A DNA stretch of 59,807 bases, from positions 1 through 59,807 of the forward strand of contig NW_015163195.1 in the NCBI RefSeq assembly GCF_001447785.1, read 5' to 3'. This document shows positions 1,500-54,604 of the stretch, one piece after another. The notes under the pieces were generated by a model. That model made no database searches and was not told the origin of the DNA. It was given only the letters and a program-made list of their open reading frames with translations. How positions within the stretch are numbered: the first letter of the stretch is position 1; every line of letters starts with the position of its first letter. A program made the position numbers and the translations under genes. Source of the DNA: Gekko japonicus. Lineage: Eukaryota.

Positions 1500-1617
1500 T
1501 GGTCTCCCTTTCCAACATGAACGGGAGCTGAACTGGAGGAGAAGCCGTCTGTCCGTCCATCCATCATCCATCCATCCATCCATCCATCCATCCATCCATC
1601 CATGCGCAAAGGTGAGT
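1500..1617 (+). promoter_or_regulatory. Putative 5' leader exon end and splice donor of OR-1
   Basis: ATGAAC...GGAGGAG...CATCCATGCGCAAAG|GTGAGT, homologous to the leader ends of units 2-5; contains (TCCA)n. Confidence 0.6.
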
Positions 1618-4062: not shown

Positions 4063-4550
4063 ATGAATCATCGGGACATGCCTGAATGCATCGTGAAAGA
4101 TGGAGATCAATTACTCCAGGGGGTGTGATCTGGAGTGATTTAGGAGTGTTGTGACACCAGGTACATGGTAGTTGAGACAGAGGACGGGATGATTTTTTTT
4201 AATGGATAAAATCAGTCTGCAGTTTTGTCCTCCTCCAAAGGGTGTTCAGCTGCACCAGCAAATGAATTGAGACCGCTGGTAGAGAAAATGAGAGGAATGA
4301 GTGATTTGTTGGCAGTTGAGTGAGTCAAGAACTGGGAAGTCTTGAAGGCAGACACGGCAAGAGGGACCAGACTTCAGCAGTTCCTTTCCCTGAGCCTTGG
4401 ATTTGTTATATAACCCATAAACCTGGAAGGCAACAATTTGTTCCTCATCCCCTTGAGGACTGACAAACCGGTGCTCAGAGGTGTTGCTCATCACAGTACC
4501 TAAGATGTGTTTTCTCCACCCATTTTTCTCTCCTGACAGGTGAGTTCTCA

Positions 4551-5510
4551 ATGGGAGTGAGGAATGAGACACAGGTGGTGGAATTTGTCTTCCTAGGTTT
4601 CTCCGGCATTCCAGACAGCCACATCTACCTCTTCCTGCCATTCCTAGCCATTTACCTGGTCACTGTACTAGGGAACCTCACAATATGTACTCTGATTCAA
4701 CTGGATCCCAGCCTCCATACGCCCATGTATTACTTCCTCAGCCATCTCTCCTTCCTAGACATCTGCATCTCCTCCGTCACAGTCCCCAAGATCCTGGTGA
4801 ACTTCTTGCGCCAGCGACAGACCATCTCCTACAACCAGTGCATGGCCCAGATGTTCTTCCTGCTCTCTTTTGCGGGGTCGGAGGCTCTGTTGCTGGCCGT
4901 CATGGCCTATGACCGCTATGCGGCCATCTGCAAACCTTTGCATTACTCCCGCCTCATGACCACCAAGGTGTGCACCATTTTGGCCCTGGCTACTTGGATC
5001 TTGGGCCCCCTAGACTCCGCTCTCCATACAGTGCTCAGCACCACGTTATCCTTTTGTGGCGTCAACCAGATTCATCACATCTTGTGCGATGTCACCCCAC
5101 TGTTGAACATTGCGTGCAGTGATACACACATCAATAAAATGGCAGCTCAGGTAGCAAACATTTTGGGGGCTGGGGGACCCTTCTTCTTCATCATTCTCTC
5201 CTACTGCCTAATTCTGCACTCCATCCTGAAGATTCGTTCCACCACTGGCAAGCGCAAAGCCTTTTCCACCTGTTCTTCTCACCTCATTGTTGTCATCATT
5301 TACTACGGAAATTCGCTAATTAACTACAATGGTTCAAGTGCTGGTGGTGGCTCCTTGGAGACTCCCACCCTGGCCTGCATCATGGACCTTATAATCGCCC
5401 CAATGCTGAACCCGCTCATCTATAGCCTCCGCAACAAGGACGTGAAGGGGGCCCTGAAGAAGGTGCTGGGAAGCCAGAAGAAGACCGCATGTCCCCACAC
5501 TATAAGTTAA
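4551..5510 (+). CDS. Olfactory receptor OR-1 (class II, OR5V1/OR12D-like), intact, 319 aa
   Basis: Motifs N-x-T, GN, LHTPMYYFLSHLS, MAYDRYAAICKPLHY, KAFSTCSSHL, PMLNPLIYSLRN; polypyrimidine+CAG acceptor ends at 4539. Confidence 0.96.
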   Translation: MGVRNETQVVEFVFLGFSGIPDSHIYLFLPFLAIYLVTVLGNLTICTLIQLDPSLHTPMYYFLSHLSFLDICISSVTVPKILVNFLRQRQTISYNQCMAQMFFLLSFAGSEALLLAVMAYDRYAAICKPLHYSRLMTTKVCTILALATWILGPLDSALHTVLSTTLSFCGVNQIHHILCDVTPLLNIACSDTHINKMAAQVANILGAGGPFFFIILSYCLILHSILKIRSTTGKRKAFSTCSSHLIVVIIYYGNSLINYNGSSAGGGSLETPTLACIMDLIIAPMLNPLIYSLRNKDVKGALKKVLGSQKKTACPHTIS

Positions 5511-5763
5511 GGCTACGTAGCTTTAGAACTCTGTGAAGTGCGCTCTTATCTTGCTATAGTGACATGTTGAAGCGGTAAGGAAGACCCAGTTTCAGTAGCT
5601 GAACAGAAACACATGAAACTGGGTGCTGAGACACGAGCAGTGCACCGCACAATAAACCAAAGTCAAGAAATAAGAAAGGCAAAAGAATAAAAAGAATGAG
5701 AAACAATAGCCATAAGCAACTCCCAAACCAGAACTCAATCACCATAACATTAATACGAAGAGC

Positions 5764-6780
5764 TGTTAGCTCAGACGTTTTATATTGGGCTATTTCTGGA
5801 CTATGTTATATGAATAAAGCTTGATGCAAAGGGCTAATAAAAAGAGACTGTGTAATAAAGAGTTCACCTTGAGGGCACCCAGAGAAGATGCCAGCTGAGG
5901 TTGATAATCTGCTGAAGCAACATCGTTCCAGAGGTGTCCTGGTGTCTCCGGCTTATCAAGAGTGTGCAAACACAAGGTTTACAGCAAACACAGAAAACTC
6001 ATTAGTTAGCCCAGACGCTCAGTCTAAACATGAGAGGCTTATTTCAGAGTTCCCCCTCCGACAGACTGCTAGTCCACATGGAGAATCCACATGGCTAGAG
6101 ATGAGTCAATGCTATTGTTGCCGCAGCACGTACCTCTTTTCCCATGCCCAGGTTCCAACGGCCAAAGTTAATCAATAGATTGGAAATTGACCCATTAGCC
6201 AATCCCCGACATGTAGGGTAGGGCCACCTGGTGTAAGCCGCCTGAGCCCACCCCCTCTTGCTCGCAAGAAGCTTTAAAACTTAGAACACAGAGCAGCCAG
6301 TTCACTATTCTCTCTTTTACCTACGTCCTCTGCCTGTCTGCTTTCCCCCTTCAATCCAGCTTTCTATCCAGAAACCCTTGCCTCGCTTTTACACCTTAGT
6401 CTGCAGCTAGGGTGCCACACGTGTTCTTGGCTGGTCTGAGTACACGCGCTTTTCCCGTTTACATATTTCCTTCCCTCCCTAATACCTCCCTGCTGGAAGC
6501 TTTAGGAGCCGTGTATCACCTGAGGTAAATATCACCCACCAACGATAACCTGCAAATGCGAAAGTGCTTTACCAAATCTCTTTGTTTTTACTTAGTTCTT
6601 GTGTGTGTGTATGATATTGTGTGCTTTGCATGATATTTAGTAAACTAAAGAGAATTTTACTTCTGTCTCTGTCTCTTCACTGGGAACGTATTGGTGCAGC
6701 CCATCCTCTGTAGACATTGACCTGAATCCCAATTAACAAACTGTTCCAATTGCCTCTCCTAAAGAGCAATTCGGCTAACA
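5764..6780 (+). mobile_element. Solo LTR (ERV1/Gypsy-type)
   Basis: TGTTAGC...GCTAACA termini; perfect 4-bp TSD GAGC; TTTAAAA and AGTAAA signals. Confidence 0.8.
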
Positions 6781-11300: not shown

Positions 11301-12042
11301 GTTGAGAAACCACAGATTCTCTGGCATTAATCTGACAGGGGCAGGAGTGACACAACAGGAAATGTCCACATCTTCGCACATAGCTGACATCTTGGGTCCA
11401 TGCAAGGTTGGCTGGAGAGAAAGGCCCATTCTCTGCAACACTCGTTAAAAGGGATTCTTCCATTGGCCGATCTGAATTCTTGTCAGAAGGTCAGCAGGCA
11501 ACCCGAATCCAGAAGCCCAGAATACAATCCACATCCTACCTTTTACTCGGACCAGCCAAATGGCACAGAACAGAAATTCAGGCCAGGGAGTTGCTTGGGG
11601 GAGAAAGCGTAGGCCAAAACCACTAATCCAGCTCGCAGCCTGTTGACATGTTCCGGACATGCCTCTGGGTATAAATTATATTTCTCTCCCCTGACATTGT
11701 GAGACGCAATCCAGACAAAATCCCCTGAGCTTCCAGCCACCACTTTGCACTCCCTGCGGGCTTCCAATCCAGGAGCATCCCCGAGGACCGTAGGGGTTCT
11801 GCTCCCCCCCCAAAGGCAGTCTCGTTTTTGTATACCTCTGGCTGCTCTCGGGCATCAGAGACTTCCCACTGGTGACAGAGAGAGGCTTTTGAGGCCACCC
11901 ATCTTGGGGCTACCATGCAGCCACATCATGAAAACTTTGGGCTAAGCTGCTCTCATCTTGCAAACAGGATGAACAGGAACCGAAAGCCTGGAGGAGGATG
12001 AGGAATCCAACCTTGACTTGTCATCCATGTGCAAAGGTGAGT
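11301..12042 (+). promoter_or_regulatory. Candidate promoter and 5' leader exon of OR-2
   Basis: Block conserved in 4 units; TATAAAT at 11670; donor CAAAG|GTGAGT at 12036/12037. Confidence 0.6.
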
Positions 12043-15357: not shown

Positions 15358-16110
15358 GTTAGGGTACGTTGAGATGAGAGGGAAAGAAAAGAGGATGCTT
15401 TTATATAACCACCTTTCTTTTGTTCTTCCATGTGCTGAATTCTGTGTAGTGCTAAAGCATACTCGTAAACATTTTCTTTTTAAATAAATATCTTACTCTT
15501 AGATGCTGGTGGCGGTTCTTTGTACCATCGAGCCCTCGAACTGCGGTTGGACATGCTACAGTAAGAAGGGGGCCCCATGGCAGAAGGAAGAGGTCAGGGT
15601 GCAATTGGCCAGCCCTCCAGGGGAACCCCAAAGCTGCATTTGGTCCCCATGGTAACCAGGTGCTGGGTAGCAAGTGGCCTTGAGGCCAGGCCTCAGGAGA
15701 AAGAAGGGAGTTAGAAGTCTGTCTCCCCAGCAGGAAGACCCCAGGAGGACAATAGTGGCAGTGGTGAACTAGTGGAAGGAAGCAGAAGAGCTCCTTTTAG
15801 AAGATGGGAACCCAATAAATGGAGTGAGCAGAACAGGGTCTGTAGGTGAAGCAGGTCTTTTCCGTTACACCATCCATTGGGGGTGCCGGGGTGGGCAGCT
15901 TCAGAGGAGTGAGGACAGGAGGAACCAGAAGTCATGACATAATAACACATCTGATATCCATGTGGGGCACGATTCCAAGAACCCCACTTCTCCCACTGGA
16001 CTTCAGTGAGCTTCAAGCTGCCTGGAGGCACCCCAAATACGCTTGCCATGCCAAGGTGTCTTCCCTCAGCTGATTTTTTTCTCTCCTTACAGATGAGTCC
16101 TGAAGTCTCA

Positions 16111-17067
16111 ATGGGAGTGAGGAATCAGACACGAGAGGTGGAATTCGTCTTCCTGGGTTTCTCCGGCATTCCGAACAGCCACATCTACCTCTTCCTGCCA
16201 TTCCTAGTCATTTACTTGGTCACTATACTGGGGAATCTCATGATATTTACTCTGATTCAACTGGATTCCAGCCTCCATACACCCATGTATTACTTCCTCA
16301 GCCACCTCTCCTTCCTAGATATCTGCATCTCCTCCACCACAGTCCCCAAGATCCTGGTGAACTTCTTGTGTCAGCGACAGACCATAACCTACAACCAGTG
16401 CCTGGCCCAGGTGTTCTTCCTGATGTCTTTCACGGGGACAGAGGCTGCGTTGCTGGCCGTCATGGCCTACGACCGCTATGCTGCCATCTGCAAGCCTTTG
16501 CATTACTCCAGCCTTATGAACACCAAGGTGTGCGCCATTTTGGCCTTTGCCACCTGGGTCTGGGGCTTCCTAGATGCTGCTCTCCACACAGCTCTCAGCT
16601 CCAAGTTGCAGTTTTGTGGAGTCAACCAGATTCATCACATTTTCTGCGATATTCCTCCACTGATGAAAATTGCTTGCAACGATGTGCATATCAATCAACT
16701 AGTAATCTACATAACAAGCCCTTTGGTGGCCACGGCCCCTTTCCTGTTCACGATCCTCTCCTACATCTTCATCCTGTCCTCCATCTTGAAGATCCGTTCC
16801 ACCACCGGCAAGCGCAAAGCTTTTTCCACCTGTGTTTCCCACCTCACCGTTGTCATAATTTACTTTGGAAATGGATTACTTAACTATAACCGTCCAAGCG
16901 CTGGTTATTCCTTAGAGACTGACACCCTGGTCTCCACCATGTACTGCATCATCACCCCAATGCTGAACCCCCTCATCTACAGCCTCCGGAACAAGGAGGT
17001 GAAAGGGGCCTTCAGGAAGGTTCTAGAAAGTCAGGGAAAGTCAAAACATCACCACATTATAAATTAG
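16111..17067 (+). CDS. Olfactory receptor OR-2, intact, 318 aa (alternative in-frame ATG at 16093)
   Basis: All OR motifs; start MGVRNQT matches paralogs; acceptor AG at 16091-16092. Confidence 0.96.
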   Translation: MGVRNQTREVEFVFLGFSGIPNSHIYLFLPFLVIYLVTILGNLMIFTLIQLDSSLHTPMYYFLSHLSFLDICISSTTVPKILVNFLCQRQTITYNQCLAQVFFLMSFTGTEAALLAVMAYDRYAAICKPLHYSSLMNTKVCAILAFATWVWGFLDAALHTALSSKLQFCGVNQIHHIFCDIPPLMKIACNDVHINQLVIYITSPLVATAPFLFTILSYIFILSSILKIRSTTGKRKAFSTCVSHLTVVIIYFGNGLLNYNRPSAGYSLETDTLVSTMYCIITPMLNPLIYSLRNKEVKGAFRKVLESQGKSKHHHIIN

Positions 17068-21126: not shown

Positions 21127-22072
21127 GTTGAAACACCACAGATTCTCTGGCATTAATCTGACAGGGGCAAGAGTGACACAACAGGAAATGTCCACATCTT
21201 TGCACGTAGCTGCCATCTTGGATCCATGCAAGGTTGGCTGGAGAGAAAAGCACATCCTCTCTGTAACACTCGTTAAAAGGGATTCTTCCATTGGCAGGTC
21301 TGAATTCCTGTCAGAAGGTCAGCTGGCAACCCAAATTCAGAAGCCCAGAATACAATCCACATCCTACCTTTTACTCGGACCAGCCAAATGGCACAGAACA
21401 GAAATTCAGGCCAGGGAGTCGCTTGGGGGAGAAAGCGTAGGCCAAAACCAGTAATCCAACCCACAGCCTGTTGACATGTTCTGGACATGCCTCTGGGTAT
21501 AAATTATATTTCTCTCCCCTGACATTGTGAGACGCAATCCAGACAAAATCCCCTGAGCTTCCAGCCACCACTTTGCACTCCCTGCGGGCTTCCAATCCAG
21601 GAGCATCCCCGAGGACCGTAGGGGTTCTGCTCCCCCCCCAAAGGCAGTCTCGTTTTTGTATACCTCTGGCTGCTCTCGGGCATCAGAGACTTCCCACTGG
21701 TGACAGAGAGAGGCTTTTGAGGCCACCCATCTTGGGGCTACCATGCAGCCACATCATGAATCACTCCCTGCGGGCTTCCGACCCAGGAGCATCCTCGAGG
21801 ACCCTAGCTCAAGAGCAGGGTTCTGCCCCCACCCCCCAAGGCAGCCTTAGTTTTGTATACCTCTGGCTGCTCTCGGGCATCAGAGACTTCCCACTGGCAG
21901 CAGAGAGAGCCTTTTGAGGCCACACGTCTTGGGGCTACCATGCAGCCACATCATGAAGACTTTGGGCCAAACTGCTCTCATCTCGCAAACAGGATGAACA
22001 GGAACCGAAAGCCCGGAGGAGGAGGAGGAGGAAGCCGACCTTGACTTGTGTCATCCATGTGCAAAGGTGAGC
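21127..22072 (+). promoter_or_regulatory. Candidate promoter and leader exon of OR-3 (internal tandem duplication)
   Basis: TATAAAT at 21498; donor CAAAG|GTGAGC at 22066/22067. Confidence 0.6.
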
Positions 22073-22235
22073 AGGTTTTTTAGGCCAGCATATTTCCAGG
22101 TGCCAGGCAATCCCCCTCTCAACACGAGGTGGGTTCTCAAGCCCTTTGGCTGGCAGCAGCCACTACAAGTGAGTCTTACTGAGCCATGGTTTGTTCCGAT
22201 TTAAGAACTGTTCAGTGGAATAGAATGGAGATCAT

Positions 22236-36392: not shown

Positions 36393-36757
36393 AAATATCT
36401 ATGTCCTCATGGGAGTTTTTATGAAAAAATGCAATGAAAATATCAACATGTACTAATTTGAAAGAAAATCGCTATAAGAATGTACAGATGGTATATGACG
36501 TCGAAAAAGATTGCTAATATGAATTGTAATATTTCAAACAAATGTTGGAAATGTAAAAAAGTTGAAGGGTCATTTTACCATATGTGGTGGATTTGTGAGA
36601 AAGCAAAACAATTTTGGACTAATATACATGGGGAGATGGAGAAAATAGTGAAATGTAATTTTAAAAAAGAACCAGAAATACTATTGTTGGGTTTAAAAAT
36701 GGAAGAAGTTAACATGACAAAAAGGACACTAATGTGGTATATGATAACAGCAGCAAG
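36393..36757 (+). mobile_element. L1/Tx1 ORF2 C-terminal CCHC fragment (partial copy at 47143-47272)
   Basis: CWKC....GSFYHMWWIC...FW. Confidence 0.8.
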
Positions 36758-43053: not shown

Positions 43054-44802
43054 ACCTTGGAAATAAATAATAAAATAAATAATAAAAGTAGTTGGGTTTT
43101 TTTCTTCATCATATATGCATGTTGATGTACAAAGAATCGAGTAAAATGTGTCCTGATGTTTCCTAGTGCAAGTTTTCAAGAATTTTGGGCAGAGCAGGAG
43201 GATAAGAGGGAGTAATGGAGAAGAAGAGGGCAGTCAATGGCTGGAGTGTAACCTCCATGTGCAGAGGCTGCGTAAGTCCAAATGCCACCTGCTCGGGATT
43301 CGTAGTGGAGACTACTGCGACCCTTATGCAGTGTGTTTCTCAAAAACATTTGGTTGGCCGACGACCACTGTAGTGAACGGAATGCTGGACTAGATGGGAC
43401 TGAAGGGAACCTCCATGTTTTCTGAGCCAGTGAACCTCTGAATCCCAGTGCCAGGAGGCAACATCAGGGGAAGGCATCAGCCTCTGTGCCCTGTTGTTGG
43501 TTTGCAGAGGAACTGGAGGTGTGATACAGGATGGTGGACTTGATGGACCACTGGTCTGATCCAACAGGGCTCATTTGCAGATGCCACACCCCCTGACATC
43601 CCCCGGAGTGTGTCAGAAGGCAACACCCACCGCCCAGGCTCCTAGGAGGGGGTGGGTCTAGACAAAGTCATCCCTTTTCCCTGAACCGGGTTAACGGAAC
43701 GCTCTCAATCTGCCTGGATGTGCCATGCGCACGCACCATGCTTTGGGTTCTTCAAGCACAGTGGCTGGGGTTCCTTGTCACAGAGCATTGGCTCCTGCCG
43801 TTTGGTTTCTCTTTGCACTACGCTGCCGAGAAAGTAGCTCGGCTGGTGGGGATGAGCAGAACCCTGACATTTCACAAGGGATCAGTGTGCCGCCTTGTAA
43901 TTCCTTGCATTGCTACATATTTGTCATGCCATAGGTGGTTACATGCAGGGGTCATTTTCTGCAGGAGCGCACAGGAGCGGAGCTCCGGCAGTAAAGAGCC
44001 CAGGGGGCGGGCACATGCAACAAGCCCCACCCCCTGCTCCCAGCAGCCTTCAGTCACAGCAAGAAGCAGCCAGGGAAGCTGCAGAGCCCCCCCCCCCGGC
44101 CCNNNNNNNNNNNNNNNNNNNNNNNNNNNNNNNNNNNNNNNNNNNNNNNNNNNNNNNNNNNNNNNNNNNNNNNNNNNNNNNNNNNNNNNNNNNNNNNNNN
44201 NNNNNNNNNNNNNNNNNNNNNNNNNNNNNNNNNNNNNNNNNNNNNNNNNNNNNNNNNNNNNNNNNNNNNNNNNNNNNNNNNNNNNNNNNNNNNNNNNNNN
44301 NNNNNNCATCCCCCGGAGTGTGTCAGAAGGCAACACCCACCGCCCAGGCTCCACTGGACTGTTTTGGATTGCTAGCTATTGGGGGGGGGACATGCAAATC
44401 TCCCTCTGTGAGGAGGGAGAGCTTGTACCTGAAAAAACCTTGGTCTTAAAGGTGCCACTGGACTGTTTTGGACCAGGGGACGGGGGGGGCCTCTGCAACT
44501 TACCTGGCTTCTTCTTGCTCTGACTGAGGGCTGCCGAGAGCAGGGGGTGGGGCTTGTTGCATGTTCCCACCCCCTGGGCTCTTTACTGCCGGAGCTCCGC
44601 TCCTGTGCGCTCCTGCAGGAAATGACGCCTGGATAGCCGTGACCTCTTTGTCCCTCTGGTTCTATTGCACCCTCTGAATTCTGCAAGTTCATTCTAAGAG
44701 ACCTTGCATGGGCCATTACTTCCAACAAAAATAACCCTATGGAAAGGGAACTCAAAGGGGGAACGCTGTTCTCTCTTACATTTTCAATAGGTAAGCCCTT
44801 AT

Positions 44803-45560
44803 TGTTGAAACACCACAGATTCTCTGGCATTAATCTGACAGGGGCAGGAGTGACACAACAGGAAATGTGCACATCTTTGCACGTAGCTGCCATCTTGGAT
44901 CCATGCAAGGTTGGCTGGAGAGAAAAGCCCATTCTCTGCAACACTCGTTAAAAGGGATTCTTCCATTGGCCGGTCTGAATTCCTGTCAGAAGGTCAGCTG
45001 GCAATTCAGAAGCCCCAAATACAATCCACATCCTAACTTTTACTTGGACCAGCCAAATGGCACAGAATGGAAATTCAGGCCAGGGAGTCGCTTGGGCAAG
45101 AAAGCGTAGGCCAAAACCAGTAATCCAACCCACAGCCTGTTAACATGTTCTGGATATGCCTCTGGGTATAAAATATACTTCTCTCCCCCGACATTGTGAG
45201 ACGCAATCCAGACAAAATCCTCTGAGCTTCCAGCCACCACACTGCACTCCCTGTGGGCTTCCGACCCAGGAGCATCTCCGAGGACCGTAGCCCAAGAGCA
45301 GGGTTCTGCCCCCTCCCCCAAGGCAGCCTCGGTTTTGTATACCTCTGGCTGCTCTAGCGCATCAGAGACTTCCCACTGGCAGCAGAGAGAGCCTTTTGAG
45401 GCCACACGTCTTGGGGCTACCATGCAGCCACATCATGAAGACTTTGGGACAAACTGCTCTCATCTCACAAACAGGATGAACAGGAACCGAAAGCCAGGAG
45501 GAGGAGGAGGAGGAGGAGGAAGCCGACCTTGACTTGTGTCATCCATGTGCAAAGGTGAGC
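44803..45560 (+). promoter_or_regulatory. Candidate promoter and leader exon of OR-5
   Basis: TATAAAA at 45167; donor CAAAG|GTGAGC at 45554/45555. Confidence 0.6.
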
Positions 45561-48029
45561 AGCTTTTTGGGGCCAGCATATTTCCAGGTGCCGTGCAATC
45601 CCCCCCTCAACATGATGGCAGAAAAAGAGGTGGTGGAAGCCACTTCAGGTGAGCCTGACTGAGCTACGGTTTGTTCAGATTTAAGAACTGTTCCGTAGAA
45701 TGGAAGGGAGGCCACCAATGCACCCTCCTTCCCCCTCCCTTTCTCTCCCACCTTCCCCAAGAGTTGGAGTCTGTGAGCCAAAAATTCCACTTTGTGAGCT
45801 ACGGGCATTAAAGTTGTGAGTGAGCAATTTGGCTACTGCATCAATTAGTGTGCTCTGGAGCCACCCTTCGCGAGCCGAGATGAAAATGTGTGAGCCAGAG
45901 GCTAAAAAAACCCTATGAGCTAGCTCACACTAACTCGGCTTGGAGACAACACTGGAGACCACCAATGTTTCCTCTAAGATAATAAAATATACCGTGAACA
46001 AAGGAGGACAGTTTGTGTTTTTGCCACTTGGGCAGCTCAAATTAAGGCAACCAAGGTAATGCCTCAATAAAAGAACAACAATACAATGCTATCATTTGCT
46101 TGTAGTGCCAGTTCTGCTTTCCAAAGTAAAGTAAGCAAAACGCCCTACCAGTGAATCCTGTTCCAAGGACATTGCAGGCAAAATATCAATAGGGGGAAGA
46201 TAAGAAAGGGAATTTGACAGAAGGAAGGAGAGGGAGAAGCAGGCACAGAGGGGATTTGACTGGCCACGTAAAGTATGGAAGATGGCTAAGATGGGGCAAA
46301 ACACCAGGACCCAAATGTCATCGTGGTGCCGTCCGCCGAACCATTTTCCATCTGGCACAGGAATGTGAGCATTGTGCTTTCCAGGGAGATGTGGCGGAGC
46401 TCTTTGAACTCTCCCCAGCTGCGATTGAGTGGATTGAAAATTGAGATATTAGTATTTAGGGGGATTGTTCAATCAGTCTGCATGCCCATTGCATCGCCTT
46501 CATTCTGTATTTTATATCAATACATGCTTCCTGTGTCAATAAATAAATAATAATTAGGTGAGTAATCCATGTCTTTTTTATGGTCACGCATACAGAATAC
46601 ACACAGAGAGGAGAGCTTGGGAAGACAAAGGAAAAATACAGTCTGTAATAGATGCATTAAGCCTGAGATGGCAAGGAGGCAGTCGAGAGGACATCCCAGA
46701 CAGGCAGTTCGAGGGGAAGGACTGGAGGGAGAGAGGACGCTCCAAGCTCCTGGTGGGCGTCCTCGGGGGTAGGTGGTGCTGAAGACCTAATGAGAGGGCC
46801 CGTGCTATGTGGTGGCCGGAGGTCAGAGCCAGTTCTGGGACACTTGCATCCAGGTACTCAGACATGGAGTTTTGTGGGAGAACTTGGGCCAGTCATAAGA
46901 ACATAAGAGAAGCCAATGTTGGATCAGGCCAATGGCCCATCTAGTCCAACACTCGGTGTCACACAGTGGCCAAAAACACCAGGTGCCATCAAGAGGTCCA
47001 GCAGTGGGGCCAGGACACCAGAAGCCCTCCCACTGTTGCCCCCCCAAGAAGCACCAAGAATACAGAGCATCCCTTGTCCCAGACATAAGGACATAAGAGA
47101 AGCCAGAAATATTTATTTATTATTTACACTTATTATTTACAAATATCTATGTCCTCATGGGAGTTTTTATGGAAAAATGCAATGAAAATATCAACATGTA
47201 CTAATTTGAAAGAAAATTGCTATAAGATGATGTACAGATGGTATATGACGCCAAAAAAGATTGCTAATATGAAAGTTTGTGTCAGAGTTCTCTCAGCCCC
47301 ACTGTCCTTTTATCAGGGTGTCTGTGGCGGGGAGGGGAAGGGAAAGGAGTCTGTAAGCCGCTCTGGGACTCCAAGTGAAGGGTGGGGTATAAATCCAATC
47401 TCTTCTCTTCTTCTTCATCCCCTTAAGTAGCCAATTTGCGGCGTGAGGCAAGAGCCGGGCAGTCACTGTTTCCTAGGAAATGTTAGGGAAAATGTTAGGG
47501 GGAAAAACAAACAATACCTAAGGATGGATAAGACAAAAGAAACGACAGTTGGAAGGAGGGTGCAATCAGTGGTTAAGTGCGTGGACTCTAATCTGGGAGA
47601 GAGAACCGAGTTTGATTCCCCACTCCTCCTCTTGCACCTGGCTGGATGACCTTGGGCAAGCCACAATTCTGATAAGAGCTGTCCTTGAAAAAAGAGCAGT
47701 CTCTGTCAAGAGCTCTCTCAGCCCCACCCACCTCACAGGGTGTCTGTTGTGGGGAGGGGAAGGGAAAGGAGTTTGTAAGCCACTCTGAGACACCTTTGGG
47801 TAGTGAAGGGCGGAATATAAATCCAATCTCTTCTTCTTCTCTTCTTTAATGGCTCAGTGCTTGTCAGGAGCATTCTCTAGATCGGTGGCAGGAAGGCTTA
47901 ATTGCTTCTTTTGTCTCTAGCTGGGCTACGGTCTTTGTTTGAGGATGACTGGGGGGGGGGAGGAATGTGCTGCATGCTGGAGAGGCGATCCCTTCATGGC
48001 GTCTGTACACCTGGCCTCTTCCAAAACAT

Positions 48030-48491
48030 TGACCCAAAGGACACTGTAAAATAGCGCTGAACAATAATCAAGTGCGATATATTGTACAAAAAAAAATCAA
48101 TATTAACAAAATGGAAAATGTGAATAGTTCATAGTTGTTAACGATGTTCTCCGGAATACTATACCATTTCATTGGGACTTCCCCTGAACAACACTGTGTC
48201 TTGTTATTCATATATCTTCAACAGATGTCTCGCACCATACTCATCTCTAAAAGATTCAGACTCTAGAAGTCATATCTATTCAGTGTGTTTTGCACGGGCA
48301 GGTGAAATGGTCGCTAGCCTTCCGGAGAACATGGTTAACAATGATGAATTATTCACATTTTCCACTTTGTTAATTTTGATATTCCTTTTGTACAATATAT
48401 TGCACTTGATTATTGTTCAGCGCTATTTGAGAGTGCCCTTTGGGTCTTATTGTTGGGCTATCTTAACTGTTATCCATTCTCTGTATCACTA
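48030..48491. mobile_element. Foldback insertion with ~140-bp inverted arms
   Basis: Arms 48031-48171 and 48303-48446; ~11-bp flanking duplication; empty site near 38985. Confidence 0.75.
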
Positions 48492-48581
48492 TTCCAGAAA
48501 ATGGCTCCTCTCTGGTCTGCTGTTGCTTCTGTGTTCATGAGGACCGGGGCTTCTGGTCTGCATCACAGAACCTGTGCAGAT

Positions 48582-48789
48582 CAATGCTCCCTCTAAGCTG
48601 TGGAGTCTTGTGAGCAAAAATCCTACTTTTTGAGCTACTGGCATTAAAATTGTGAGCAAGCGATTTAGCTGCTGCATAAATTAGTTAGCTCTGGAGCCCC
48701 ATCCTTCCTGAGCGAAGACAAAAATGTGTGAGCCGGAGGCTAAAAAACTGTGAGCTAGCTCACACTAACTCAGCTTAGAGGGAACACTG
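48582..48789 (-). mobile_element. hAT-like MITE family A
   Basis: TSD GT(G/A)CAGAT; empty site near 39066. Confidence 0.88.
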
Positions 48790-49091
48790 GTACAGATACA
48801 GTGGAGCATGGGCAGAAGTCTTCTGCAGTCTGGGGTCCAGATCTGGCTCGGCGTGTACCTCTGGCACCAGGCTTCCCTGGCCATGGTGTACTGTCCATTG
48901 TCCAGTCCGGGGCACTCCACTTGGGACCACAGCTCTGTCCGTTGCCCCAGCACCCACTTCGCAGTCCAGCAAGGCATTGTTAGTAAATTAGTCTCTTTAA
49001 TAGTCCCGTCTGGAATGGCTTCTTGGCCACAACACATCCGATATCCATGTGGGGCACTATTCCAAGAAACCCACTTATTTCCCATGACTCC

Positions 49092-49273
49092 TAGGGCTCC
49101 TTTTGTGGCAGGAACCCCTTTGCATATCAGGTGACACACCCCTAATGTAGCCAATCCTCCAAGAGCTTACAGAGCTCTTCTTACAGGGGCTACTGTAAGC
49201 TCTTGGAGGGTTGGCTACTTTAGGGGCATGTCGCCTGATATGCAAAGGAGTTCCTGCTACAAAAGGAGCCCTG
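49092..49273. mobile_element. Palindromic hAT-like MITE
   Basis: Near-complete 180-bp palindrome AGGGCTCCTTTTGT...ACAAAAGGAGCCCT; absent in units 2 and 4. Confidence 0.8.
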
Positions 49274-49389
49274 ATTGACTACAATGAGCTTCAAGCTGCC
49301 TGGAGGCACCCCAAATACGCTTGCCATGCCAAGGTGTCTTCTCGCAGCTGTTTTTGTTTCTCTCCTTACAGGTGAGTCCTGAAGTCTCA

Positions 49390-50346
49390 ATGGGAGTGAG
49401 GAATCAGACACGAGTGGTGGAATTTGTCTTCCTGGGTTTCTCCGGCATTCCGAACAGCCACATCTACCTCTTCCTGCCATTCCTAGCCATTTACTTGGTC
49501 ACCGTGCTGGGCAACCTCATGATATTTTCTCTGATTCAACTGGATTCCAGCCTTCATACGCCCATGTATTATTTCCTCAGCCATCTCTCTTTCGTAGATA
49601 TTTGTCTCTCCTCTGTCACAGTCCCCAAGATCCTGGTGAACTTCTTGCGCCAGCGACAGACCATCTCCTACAACCAGTGCATGGCCCAGATGTTCTTCCT
49701 GATCTCTTTCACGGGGACAGAGGCTGCGTTGCTGGCCGTCATGGCCTACGATCGCTATGCCGCCATCTGCAAACCTTTGCATTACTCCAGCCTCATGAAC
49801 ACCAAGGTGTGCGCCGTTTTAGCCTTTGCCACCTGGGTCTGGGGCGCCCTACACTCTGCTCTCCACACAGCTCTCAGCTCCAGGTTATACTTCTGTGGAG
49901 CCAACCAGATTCACCACATCTACTGTGATCTGCCCCCGCTGATGAAAATTGCTTGCAATGATGCACACGTCAATGAAGTTGCATCCCACGTAGCAAGCCT
50001 GTTTGTGGGTGGGGGACCCTTCTTCACCATCATCCTCTCCTACGTCTTCATCCTGTCCTCCATCTTGAAGATCCGTTCCACCACTGGCAAGCGCAAAGCC
50101 TTTTCCACCTGTGCGTCTCACATCATTGTCGTCATACTTTATTTTGGAAATGGCTCACTTAACTATAACCGTCCAAGTGCTGGTTATTCCTTAGAGACTG
50201 ACACCCTAGTCTCCACCATGTACTGCATCATCACCCCAGTGCTCAACCCCCTCATCTACAGCCTCCGGAACAAGGACGTGAAAGGGGCCTTCAGGAAGGT
50301 TCTAGAAAGCCAGGGAAAGTTGAAACATCACCACACTATAAATTAG
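49390..50346 (+). CDS. Olfactory receptor OR-5, intact, 318 aa
   Basis: All OR motifs; acceptor AG at 49370-49371. Confidence 0.96.
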   Translation: MGVRNQTRVVEFVFLGFSGIPNSHIYLFLPFLAIYLVTVLGNLMIFSLIQLDSSLHTPMYYFLSHLSFVDICLSSVTVPKILVNFLRQRQTISYNQCMAQMFFLISFTGTEAALLAVMAYDRYAAICKPLHYSSLMNTKVCAVLAFATWVWGALHSALHTALSSRLYFCGANQIHHIYCDLPPLMKIACNDAHVNEVASHVASLFVGGGPFFTIILSYVFILSSILKIRSTTGKRKAFSTCASHIIVVILYFGNGSLNYNRPSAGYSLETDTLVSTMYCIITPVLNPLIYSLRNKDVKGAFRKVLESQGKLKHHHTIN

Positions 50347-50984
50347 GGCACCCAGATGTTTTGTAGTGGATCCAGTTTCTCTCAGCTGGTTTTTGTGCCA
50401 GTTTGGTGTTGTGGTTAAGTGCGCCGACTCTAATCTGGGAGAACCGGGTTTGATTCCCCACTCCTCCACTTGTACCTGCTGGATGATCTTGGGCAAGCCA
50501 TAGTTCTGATAAGAGCTGTTCTTGAAAGAGCAGTTCTCAAAAGAGCTCTCTCAGCCCCGCCTACCTCACAGGGTGTCTGTTGTGGGGAGGGGGAGGGAAA
50601 GGAGTTTGTCAGCCGCTCTGAGACTCCGAGTGAAGGGTGGGATATAAATCCAATCTCCCCTCCTCCTCCTCCTCTTCTTCTGTTCCCTTTAGTGCTACTG
50701 GCTATGGAACAGCGTGGACTATGTTGTTGTTGTTTTGCTGTAGTGGACATTATTGAGGGAGTAAGTAAGATTCAGATTCAACAGGTGAAGTGAAACAAAT
50801 GAAACGGGGTACGGAAACATGAGTAGCACACACAATACAATAAGCTAAAATTGAGAATTAGGAGAATATGGAAGGTGAAGGAGTAAAAGAATGAAAGAAG
50901 AATATGGGCGTGATGGAGAACACAGTGGATATATCATTTGCCAAATGCCCAATTCCAAGCATCCCTCAGTAGAGGGAGATGAAA

Positions 50985-51430
50985 TATTTATCTATTTATT
51001 TATCTATTTATTTATTGGATTTGTATCTCACCCTCCCCTTGACAGGCTCAGGGCGAGCTCCAACAGTAAAAGTGCAATACAGTTAAAACTATTTTAAAAC
51101 ACAATATAAAAGATGTGACATAACAACACATGTCGCAGGTGCCATACCACTCTAATAAAAGACAGATGCTTCAGTGGTTGATAATGTTAAAGTCAGTTTT
51201 CTGTTATAAAGATCTTTAAATTTAGGATCCCAAGGACCCAGAGCTTCAGATAGACCCAGGTTACAGATGGAGGGGCTACAGATGGAGGGGGCCCAAGGGG
51301 GGGGGAGAAAGTCCACTGCCTCAACCAAAAACCCAGCAGAAGACCTCCGTCTTGCAGGCCCTGCGGAATTGTCATAAATCCTGCAGGGCCCTGATCTCAC
51401 ACGGGAGCTCATTCTACCAGGCAGGGTTGA
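50985..51430 (-). mobile_element. L2-like 3' fragment
   Basis: (TTTA)n tail; CTCCGTCTTGCAGGCCCTGCGGAA; absent at paralogous 17392. Confidence 0.6.
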
Positions 51431-51749
51431 GGCAAGTCGGATGTCCCTGCTGGTGTAATAAGATTTCGTTAGTCTTTAAGGGCCCCCGAAACGCTTGTCT
51501 TCTGCTGCAGCCACCCGACACACACCAAACTCTCTCAGGAAGAAGTGGCACAGGGTACACACTGTCACCTGGGGCAGAATAGGTCCCACAGGACATTCTG
51601 TTCTAGGCAGACTGAGAATCTTCCGAGGGCCTCCCTGGAGAGCAGGACTCCCTGCAGACTCAGGAAGGTGCCGTTTATCGTATCCTTTCCCACTCTACCG
51701 GATGCCCAGGCTGGGACCTGGTTCCCCCGCCATTTTAAAGCTGTGATCG

Positions 51750-54018: not shown

Positions 54019-54585
54019 TGTTGTTGTTCAGTCACACAGTCGAGTCCGACTCTTTGCAACCCCATGGACCAGATCACGCCAGGCCTTCTGGTCTTCCGCC
54101 GTCCTCTGGAGTTTGCTCAACTTCATGTTCGTTGCATCTATGACACTGTGTAACCATCTCATCCTTTGCCGTCCCCGTCTTCTTTGACCTTCAATCTTTC
54201 CCAGCATCAGGGTCTTCTCCAGTGAGTGCTCCCTTCTCATTTGGTGGCCAAAGTATTTGAGCTTCAACTTCAGGATCTGGCCTTCCAGGGAACAGTCAGG
54301 GTTGATTTCTTTTAGGATTGACTGATTTGATCTTTTTGCAGTCCAAGGGACTCTCAAGAGTCTTCTCCAGCACCATAGTTCAAAAGAATCTATTCTTCTG
54401 CGCTCGGCCTTCCTTATAGTCCAACTCTCGCAGCCATACATGACTACTGGGAATACCATTGCTATGACCATGCGGACTTTTGTTGGCAGGGTGATGTCTC
54501 TACTTTTCATCATGCTGTTTAGGTTCGCCATCGCTTTCCTCCCAAGGATCAGGCGTCCTTTAATTTCATGGCTGTTGTCACAGTC
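54019..54585 (-). mobile_element. Bov-B 3' fragment
   Basis: VFPVVMYGCESWTIRKAERRRID.FELWCWRR; TSD TGCCTATATGT. Confidence 0.95.
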
Positions 54586-54604
54586 TGCCTATATGTATGG
54601 ACTG

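What the first reader, a model, noticed from the sequence alone, without database searches (positions are those of the whole stretch)
4520..4550. OR splice acceptors are recursive-splice-like sites (CAG|GTGAGT) that regenerate the upstream donor
Seen: OR-1 (ttttctctcctgacAG|GTGAGT, 4539/4540) and OR-5 (tctctccttacAG|GTGAGT, 49371/49372) have a consensus donor immediately after the acceptor. All five leader exons end in CAAAG, so the spliced junction reads AAG|GTGAGT, a perfect 5' splice site. The motif is kept between the two most divergent paralogs. In OR-2 a G>A change (AG|ATGAGT, 16093) removes it and creates an in-frame ATG. Established: AG|GT ratchet points support recursive splicing, and the exon junction complex normally represses such re-splicing. 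Inference: a read-through transcript could skip its own coding exon and join the next co-oriented OR, or discard the CDS, adding a post-transcriptional layer to receptor choice. The OR-3 and OR-4 sites are hidden in gaps.
Basis: partly seen in the sequence, partly recalled or inferred. Interest (0 to 1): 0.7.

Follow-up and report, generated by a model that had tools for sequence, protein, structure and literature searches.

The report
Latent splice donor at odorant-receptor exon
In a gecko odorant-receptor cluster, splicing the leader onto the coding exon recreates a splice-donor sequence, but the RNA pieces seen keep the exon and several gene copies have lost the motif, so it is likely an unused, inherited look-alike and not a switch for receptor choice.

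Summary
In detail: CAG|GTGAGT at 4539/4540 and 49371/49372, AG|ATGAGT at 16093, and five leader donors ending CAAAG. These are real acceptors. On the OR-5 stretch, 4 assembled contigs start at this acceptor with upstream-exon letters (3 leader-type, 1 another exon), and all 4 continue into the exon. The regulatory reading is not supported. Of 15 readable paralog acceptors, 10 have GTGAGT and 12 keep GT, whereas the AG is 15/15 and true leader donors keep GT 23/23. Exon positions +1..+6 change no less than synonymous sites (P about 0.2-0.3, low power). Eight sister-family genes have a predicted acceptor at the same offset without GT. Six proteins from other geckos have Met at this codon, so ATG replaces GTG there. 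The exon is terminal and the introns are only 2.9-4.1 kb. About 3.6% of human exons regenerate a donor and 94% of those are constitutive (PMC6224609). Verdict: a latent regenerated 5' splice site, likely silenced by the exon junction complex and drifting. Functional re-splicing is untested at depth, about 7% likely.

The parts
1602..1617 (+). OR-1 leader exon 3' end and donor (ATGCGCAAAG|GTGAGT); this ATG is in frame with OR-1 after splicing
   Evidence: splicing of this particular leader to 4540 is inferred from paralogs
4515..4539 (+). OR-1 polypyrimidine tract and acceptor AG
   Evidence: AG invariant in 15 of 15 paralogs
4540..4550 (+). OR-1 exon start GTGAGT (latent regenerated donor) and 5' UTR, 11 nt, 7 nt shorter than most paralogs
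4551..5510 (+). OR-1 coding sequence, 319 aa, olfactory receptor (PF13853)
5651..5859 (+). five AATAAA hexamers after the OR-1 stop; predicted end of the terminal exon
   Evidence: use not shown
12027..12042 (+). OR-2 leader donor
16068..16110 (+). OR-2 acceptor AG|ATGAGT: no GT, in-frame ATG six codons before the usual start
16111..17067 (+). OR-2 coding sequence
22057..22072 (+). OR-3 leader donor (AAG|GTGAGC); its acceptor lies in N
34799..34814 (+). OR-4 leader donor; its acceptor lies in N
45545..45560 (+). OR-5 leader donor (AAG|GTGAGC)
   Evidence: leader-type letters seen joined to the acceptor position in 3 contigs of run X3, paralog not assignable
49347..49389 (+). OR-5 acceptor CAG|GTGAGT and 18-nt 5' UTR
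   Evidence: 4 contigs begin aligning at 49369-49370 with upstream-exon loose ends
49390..50346 (+). OR-5 coding sequence, 318 aa

Best explanation
These are ordinary 3' splice acceptors of terminal odorant-receptor exons, and the GTGAGT behind them is likely an inherited, drifting sequence that recreates a donor after splicing but is likely kept silent, so that the exon stays in the mRNA. Steps. (1) A non-coding upstream exon is spliced to the acceptor 18 nt (11 nt in OR-1) before the ATG: shown for the subfamily by contigs, inferred for each single gene. (2) The junction reads (A/C)AG|GTGAGT: follows from the genome sequence. (3) The motif likely arose once in the subfamily ancestor, since sister families have A at +1 (ATG, ATC, AGG), and was copied by tandem duplication: inferred by parsimony. 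(4) It decays at about the neutral rate and has turned into ATG-Ser, sometimes the start codon, several times: rates measured, neutrality inferred. (5) The exon junction complex laid down by the first splice, plus closure of the terminal exon at its poly(A) signal, likely prevents second-round use: inferred from mammalian and fly work, not tested here.
For:: 4 of 4 contigs that reach the acceptor from an upstream exon continue into the exon; no joints inside 49250-50390 among 38 contigs laid. GTGAGT 10/15, GT 12/15, acceptor AG 15/15; +1..+6 has 4 substitutions plus one deletion against 8.1 expected from 55 four-fold sites (empirical P 0.20 and 0.29); GT alone 2 substitutions plus the deletion (P 0.55 and 0.68); 7 of the 12 neighbouring UTR positions are invariant too; real donors keep GT and +5G in 23/23 (Fisher p 0.054 for GT, 0.006 for GT plus +5G; copies not independent); 0 of 8 sister-family genes have GT. 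Met at this codon in 6 of 58 proteins of other geckos, at three separate places in the subfamily tree counting OR-2; in 5 Sphaerodactylus proteins the usual Met is L or V. [quoted passage not shown]
Against: The RNA data are shallow assembled contigs (depth about 2-13 in this stretch) of unknown tissue; contigs drop rare forms, 14 of 32 loose ends were not shown, and a re-spliced product landing outside the stretch would not be seen. The conservation test has low power (two neutral sites stay unchanged 17% of the time), and the observed count is about half the expectation, so weak constraint is not excluded. The leader-donor set was found with a fuzzy motif search, which favours intact copies. 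GT status is unknown for 52 of 58 proteins from other geckos. The sister-family acceptors are predicted only. EJC silencing was not tested.
Confidence: 0.8

Rival explanations
1. Functional recursive splicing: after the first splice the regenerated donor is used in a regulated fraction of transcripts, to a cryptic acceptor in the CDS or 3' UTR or to the next gene's acceptor, which lowers or redirects receptor output.
For: Near-consensus regenerated donor; junction exists in contigs; all genes on C3485 are co-oriented; candidate pyrimidine-rich YAG sites lie downstream in the CDS, e.g. 4758, 4782, 49597, 49621; incomplete EJC repression gives physiological alternative splicing in some human RS-exons; OR transcripts that skip the coding exon or splice inside it are known.
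Against: Repeated loss of GT or +5G in 5 of 15 paralogs; no excess conservation; terminal exon with AATAAA after the stop; next acceptor 11.5 kb away behind another leader; 4 of 4 junction contigs keep the exon and none of the 18 loose ends shown places leader letters at an internal site. Skipping needs no regenerated donor.
Confidence: 0.07
2. U1 snRNP binds the motif without splicing and dampens 3'-end processing of the terminal exon, so paralogs with and without it are expressed at different levels.
For: Good match to the donor consensus inside a terminal exon; U1 bound at a 5' splice-site sequence inhibits polyadenylation in papillomavirus transcripts and in U1i (passages).
Against: The site overlaps the acceptor and lies 1.1 kb (OR-1) to 1.8 kb (OR-5) from the first AATAAA; no constraint detected; no expression data.
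Confidence: 0.06
3. The motif is weakly favoured for other reasons: AG|GT helps acceptor recognition, and TG-AGT is a Met-Ser or Val-Ser N-terminal extension that is coding in some copies. The donor likeness is a by-product.
For: YAG|GU is the preferred 3' splice-site context (passage); the 18-nt in-frame spacing is shared by three subfamilies; the +1 Met is the only annotated start of this domain in several Sphaerodactylus proteins; observed changes are about half of expected.
Against: Two paralogs have a 7-nt deletion here, so frame is not kept; the deficit of changes is not significant. This is compatible with the best explanation and only adds mild selection.
Confidence: 0.05
4. The shared 8-mer AGGTGAGT at both intron ends is the footprint of intron gain by tandem duplication or by a transposon target-site duplication.
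For: The same 8 letters flank the intron at 1610 and 4538.
Against: No similarity beyond these 8 letters; a predicted acceptor sits at the same -18 offset in 8 of 8 genes of two outgroup subfamilies that lack GT, so the intron position likely predates the motif.
Confidence: 0.02

Closest known systems
Annotated (putative) RS-exons repressed by the EJC (Blazquez et al. 2018, PMC6224609; passages and section 8 read)
   Same: The exon start reconstitutes a consensus-like 5' splice site at the preceding junction, yet the exon is included.
   Different: The skipping described there is measured as exon inclusion between flanking exons; here the exon is the terminal coding exon with no downstream exon of its own. 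EJC dependence is untested.
mRNA re-splicing from regenerated splice sites (Joseph and Lai 2021, PMC8184009; passages read)
   Same: A regenerated donor plus a cryptic downstream acceptor could delete coding sequence; candidate acceptors exist.
   Different: Shown in fly upon EJC loss or from cDNA; no such product was seen here.
Intronic ratchet points / cryptic RS sites of long introns (PMC8605326 abstract start; PMC6224609 passages)
   Same: Juxtaposed acceptor and donor, AG|GT.
   Different: Introns here are 2.9-4.1 kb, the downstream sequence is the retained protein-coding exon, and the GT is not conserved.
Vertebrate OR genes with 5' non-coding exons, shared leaders and read-through transcripts (10.1101/774612 and PMC3566163; passages read)
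   Same: Leader exon(s), one coding terminal exon, uORFs or in-frame upstream ATGs, clustered co-oriented paralogs.
   Different: Those passages describe cross-gene splicing and coding-exon skipping without invoking recursive splicing; no cross-gene junction was shown here.

Membership tests
Putative annotated RS-exon (Blazquez 2018) | Exon-exon junction reconstitutes a 5' splice site | tested here: met
   AAG|GTGAGT or CAG|GTGAGT from the genome; upstream exons joined at this acceptor in contigs. Judged by consensus match.
Putative annotated RS-exon (Blazquez 2018) | MaxEntScan score above the species threshold (5.52 in human) | not testable with these tools
   No MaxEntScan model on hand.
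Functional RS-exon | Exon skipped through the regenerated donor (lariat or PRPF8 evidence, GT-dependent) | not testable with these tools
   Only shallow contigs; 4 of 4 junction contigs keep the exon.
Functional RS-exon | Skipping rises on EJC depletion | not testable with these tools
   Needs knock-down data.
Functional RS-exon | A downstream acceptor of the same gene for the second step | tested here: inconclusive
   Terminal exon with AATAAA after the stop; only cryptic candidates or the next gene 11.5 kb on.
Intronic ratchet point | Lies inside a very long intron | tested here: not met
   Introns of 2,928, 4,056 and 3,817 nt for OR-1, OR-2 and OR-5.
Intronic ratchet point | Sequence after the AG is absent from the main mature mRNA | tested here: not met
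   It is the coding exon and is retained in 4 of 4 junction contigs.
Intronic ratchet point | AG|GT conserved beyond background | tested here: not met
   AG 15/15 but GT 12/15; rate not distinguishable from synonymous sites, low power; true donors 23/23.
Vertebrate olfactory receptor gene with 5' non-coding exon | Intact single-exon 7TM ORF matching PF13853 | tested here: met
   E 1e-57 to 4e-61 for OR-1, OR-2, OR-5.
Vertebrate olfactory receptor gene with 5' non-coding exon | Upstream exon spliced to an acceptor shortly before the ATG | tested here: met
   at subfamily level; leader ATG not conserved across 23 donors.

The most novel reading that the evidence does not exclude
A gecko odorant-receptor subfamily uses a regenerated donor at the start of its terminal coding exon as an EJC-gated second splice, which discards the receptor or hands the leader to the next gene, and paralogs that lost the GT have escaped this brake.
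Probability: 0.07. Interest if true: 0.7.

Novelty: new member of a known kind. Interest (0 to 1): 0.15.

Why it matters
As it most likely stands it matters little: regenerated donors occur at about 3.6% of human exons and about a fifth of genes (PMC6224609), and this is one inherited instance. If re-splicing were real and regulated it would be recursive splicing out of a terminal coding exon and a post-transcriptional control on receptor output. The natural GT-plus and GT-minus paralogs at about 85-90% identity would make a ready test set. One practical point: donor and acceptor share 8 letters, so read aligners can misplace this junction, and cross-gene junctions cannot be told from recursive products without lariats.

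Tried and rejected
no run on record as RNA held the stretch (no RNA holder listed; says nothing on expression); laying contigs on 44500-51500 was swamped by repeats; 15 joints were shown, 575 not, and none shown was 45554>49372; raw-read run X8 laid 0 of 16.3 million reads, which is no test; the genome-wide pattern for the X6 upstream exon found nothing; a shorter motif found its close relative at C3485:64556 in the fetched stretches. Idea that the X6 contig is an OR-6 exon joined to the OR-7 CDS: not supported, the contig differs from OR-7 at 5 listed sites and by count at 17 or more of 518 letters, and OR-6 and OR-7 are identical where both can be read. Idea that the junction contigs come from an intronless retrocopy: the junction pattern had 0 matches in G000 (assembly fragmented). 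Idea that the leader ATG is the conserved start: rejected, it is missing from many of the 23 donors and is out of frame in OR-2, OR-5 and OR-7. Intron-gain footprint: rejected by outgroups. Orthologous DNA could not be examined (no relatives held), so proteins stood in. The protein tree is the quick tree; the careful search did not finish. Earlier findings: nothing. Paper search returned 0. No supplements were opened.

Full report
Setting. The window is bases 1-59807 of contig C3485 of G000. It holds five co-oriented olfactory receptor genes, and the contig goes on with more. OR-1, OR-2 and OR-5 match Pfam PF13853 at E 1e-57 to 4e-61. The nearest relatives are gecko 'OR5V1-like / 5B12-like' proteins, and paralogs on contigs of the same lengths as ours are named Gekko japonicus by their sources.

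Observation. The OR-3 and OR-4 acceptors fall in N.

Are they acceptors? Yes, at subfamily level. I laid three contig sets and one raw-read run on the repeat-free stretch 49250-50390. Of 38 contigs laid, 4 reach the acceptor from outside. Three in X3 have a loose 5' end at 49370 whose consensus ends in the leader's last 17 letters (agreement 0.74, so probably mixed paralogs). One in X6 (664 nt, 518 aligned, 45 differences from OR-5) starts at 49369 with a different upstream exon; its close relative lies at C3485:64543-64572 and ends CAG|GTAAGA. All 4 continue into the exon. No joint was found inside the stretch, and none of the 18 loose ends shown (14 not shown) puts leader letters at an internal site. 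The runs are only guessed to be RNA, but joining across a multi-kb intron, with no intronless copy found in G000, points to spliced RNA. Depth is low and tissue unknown, so rare re-spliced forms are not excluded. No contig could be assigned to OR-1 itself.

Is the GT conserved? Of 19 full or partial paralogs placed, 15 have a readable acceptor (OR-3, OR-4 and b2 are N; OR-6 lacks its 5' end). Exon starts: GTGAGT 10, GTGAAT 2, ATGAGT 1, GCGAGT 1, GAGAGC 1. On the CDS tree, +1..+6 needs 4 substitutions plus one deletion, against 8.1 expected from 55 four-fold sites; the empirical P is 0.20 or 0.29 (Poisson 0.10 or 0.18). For GT alone P is 0.55 or 0.68. The acceptor AG never changes, and 7 of the 12 following UTR positions do not change either. 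Power is low: two neutral sites stay unchanged 17% of the time. The true leader donors give the contrast: 23 copies (four antisense CDS matches dropped) keep GT and +5G in 23 of 23, although their flanks are only 65-68% alike between subgroups. Fisher p is 0.054 for GT and 0.006 for GT plus +5G; the copies are related and were found by a fuzzy motif, so read these as indicative. OR-1 and OR-5 are 81% identical at third positions, so their sharing six letters is expected about 28% of the time.

Where did it come from? Eight genes of two sister subfamilies have a pyrimidine tract and CAG at the same 18-nt offset, followed by ATG, ATC or AGG and never GT (acceptors predicted). By parsimony +1 was A and became G once in this subfamily. 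In other geckos, 6 of 58 proteins carry Met exactly six residues before the usual start, which means ATG at +1 if the acceptor is in the same place. With OR-2 these sit at three separate places in the subfamily on a quick tree. In five Sphaerodactylus proteins the usual Met is L or V, so the +1 ATG would be the start. The other 52 proteins say nothing about GT. The motif is thus best read as an ATG/GTG-AGT codon pair at an acceptor, where YAG|GU is the preferred context anyway (PMC8184009, passage).

Could it be re-spliced? The chemistry allows it: candidate cryptic acceptors lie in the CDS. But the exon is terminal, with five AATAAA within 344 nt of the OR-1 stop and the first 808 nt after the OR-5 stop. 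Introns are 2.9-4.1 kb, and the next acceptor is 11.5 kb away behind its own leader. In human, 3.6% of exons and 21.7% of genes have such a regenerated donor, 93.8% of these exons are constitutive, and the EJC represses them (PMC6224609, section 8 and passages). A cross-gene junction such as 1611>16093 would be letter for letter the same whether made recursively or by skipping. Shared leaders, read-through transcripts and coding-exon skipping are already described for mouse and human ORs (10.1101/774612, passages; PMC3566163, passages). Only lariats can separate the two routes.

Literature check. A search for 'olfactory receptor' with 'recursive splicing' returned 8 papers, 7 listed, none on this subject by title or abstract start (listing only). 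Searches found no report of this motif by listing. The library lacks most subscription journals and I opened no supplements, so absence from print is not shown.

Verdict. The feature is real, the acceptor is used, and the junction meets the sequence definition of a putative RS-exon. It fails the tests for a ratchet point and shows no sign of selection or use. Best reading (0.8): a latent donor, likely EJC-silenced and drifting. Functional re-splicing 0.07. Interest 0.15.

Noticed in passing
window 1602-1611 and 4540-4550; C11369 gene a2: A 7-nt deletion in the OR-1 exon start puts the leader ATG in frame (MRKGEFS-MGVRNET), a possible two-exon ORF of the 'split OR' type. In OR-2 and OR-5 the same ATG opens a six-codon uORF that stops just before the main ATG, and in OR-7 it runs out of frame over it. 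a2 also has an 11-nt segment; one shared deletion or two cannot be told.
   Followed up: partly
C3485:64250-64572 (L046), copies at C3485:80289-80747 and C11369:14636-14174, 12057-11628: A second kind of upstream exon, inside the intron of some paralogs, whose donor CAG|GTAAGA type is used in the X6 contig; two other copies read CAA|GTAGGA.
   Followed up: partly
C3485:64836-65417 (L046): OR-6 lacks its acceptor and first 90 codons; about 580 bp of AT-rich sequence, partly like window 36638-36757, stands in their place, while the rest of the ORF is open and identical to OR-7 over the part compared. Pseudogene or misassembly.
   Followed up: partly
window 21532-21760; C2946:13331 and 14314; C3485:102729 and 103231; C10293:14250 and 14603: Leader regions or donors are tandemly duplicated in several paralogs.
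   Followed up: no
window 1557-1601: A (CCAT)n microsatellite sits directly before the OR-1 leader donor; its length varies among OR-1-type leaders.
   Followed up: no
window 45647-45654: A second donor-like CAG|GTGAGC lies about 94 nt after the OR-5 leader donor; OR-3 has CAA|GTGAGT at 22169.
   Followed up: no
C3485:99892-100354; L032 (C46241): A broken OR fragment between OR-8 and OR-9, and a 97% copy of the OR-5 leader on a small contig (allele or recent duplicate).
   Followed up: no
window 25730-26737, 36462-36757, 54028-54588: ORF remnants that look like LINE reverse-transcriptase pieces between the genes (label recalled, not searched).
   Followed up: no
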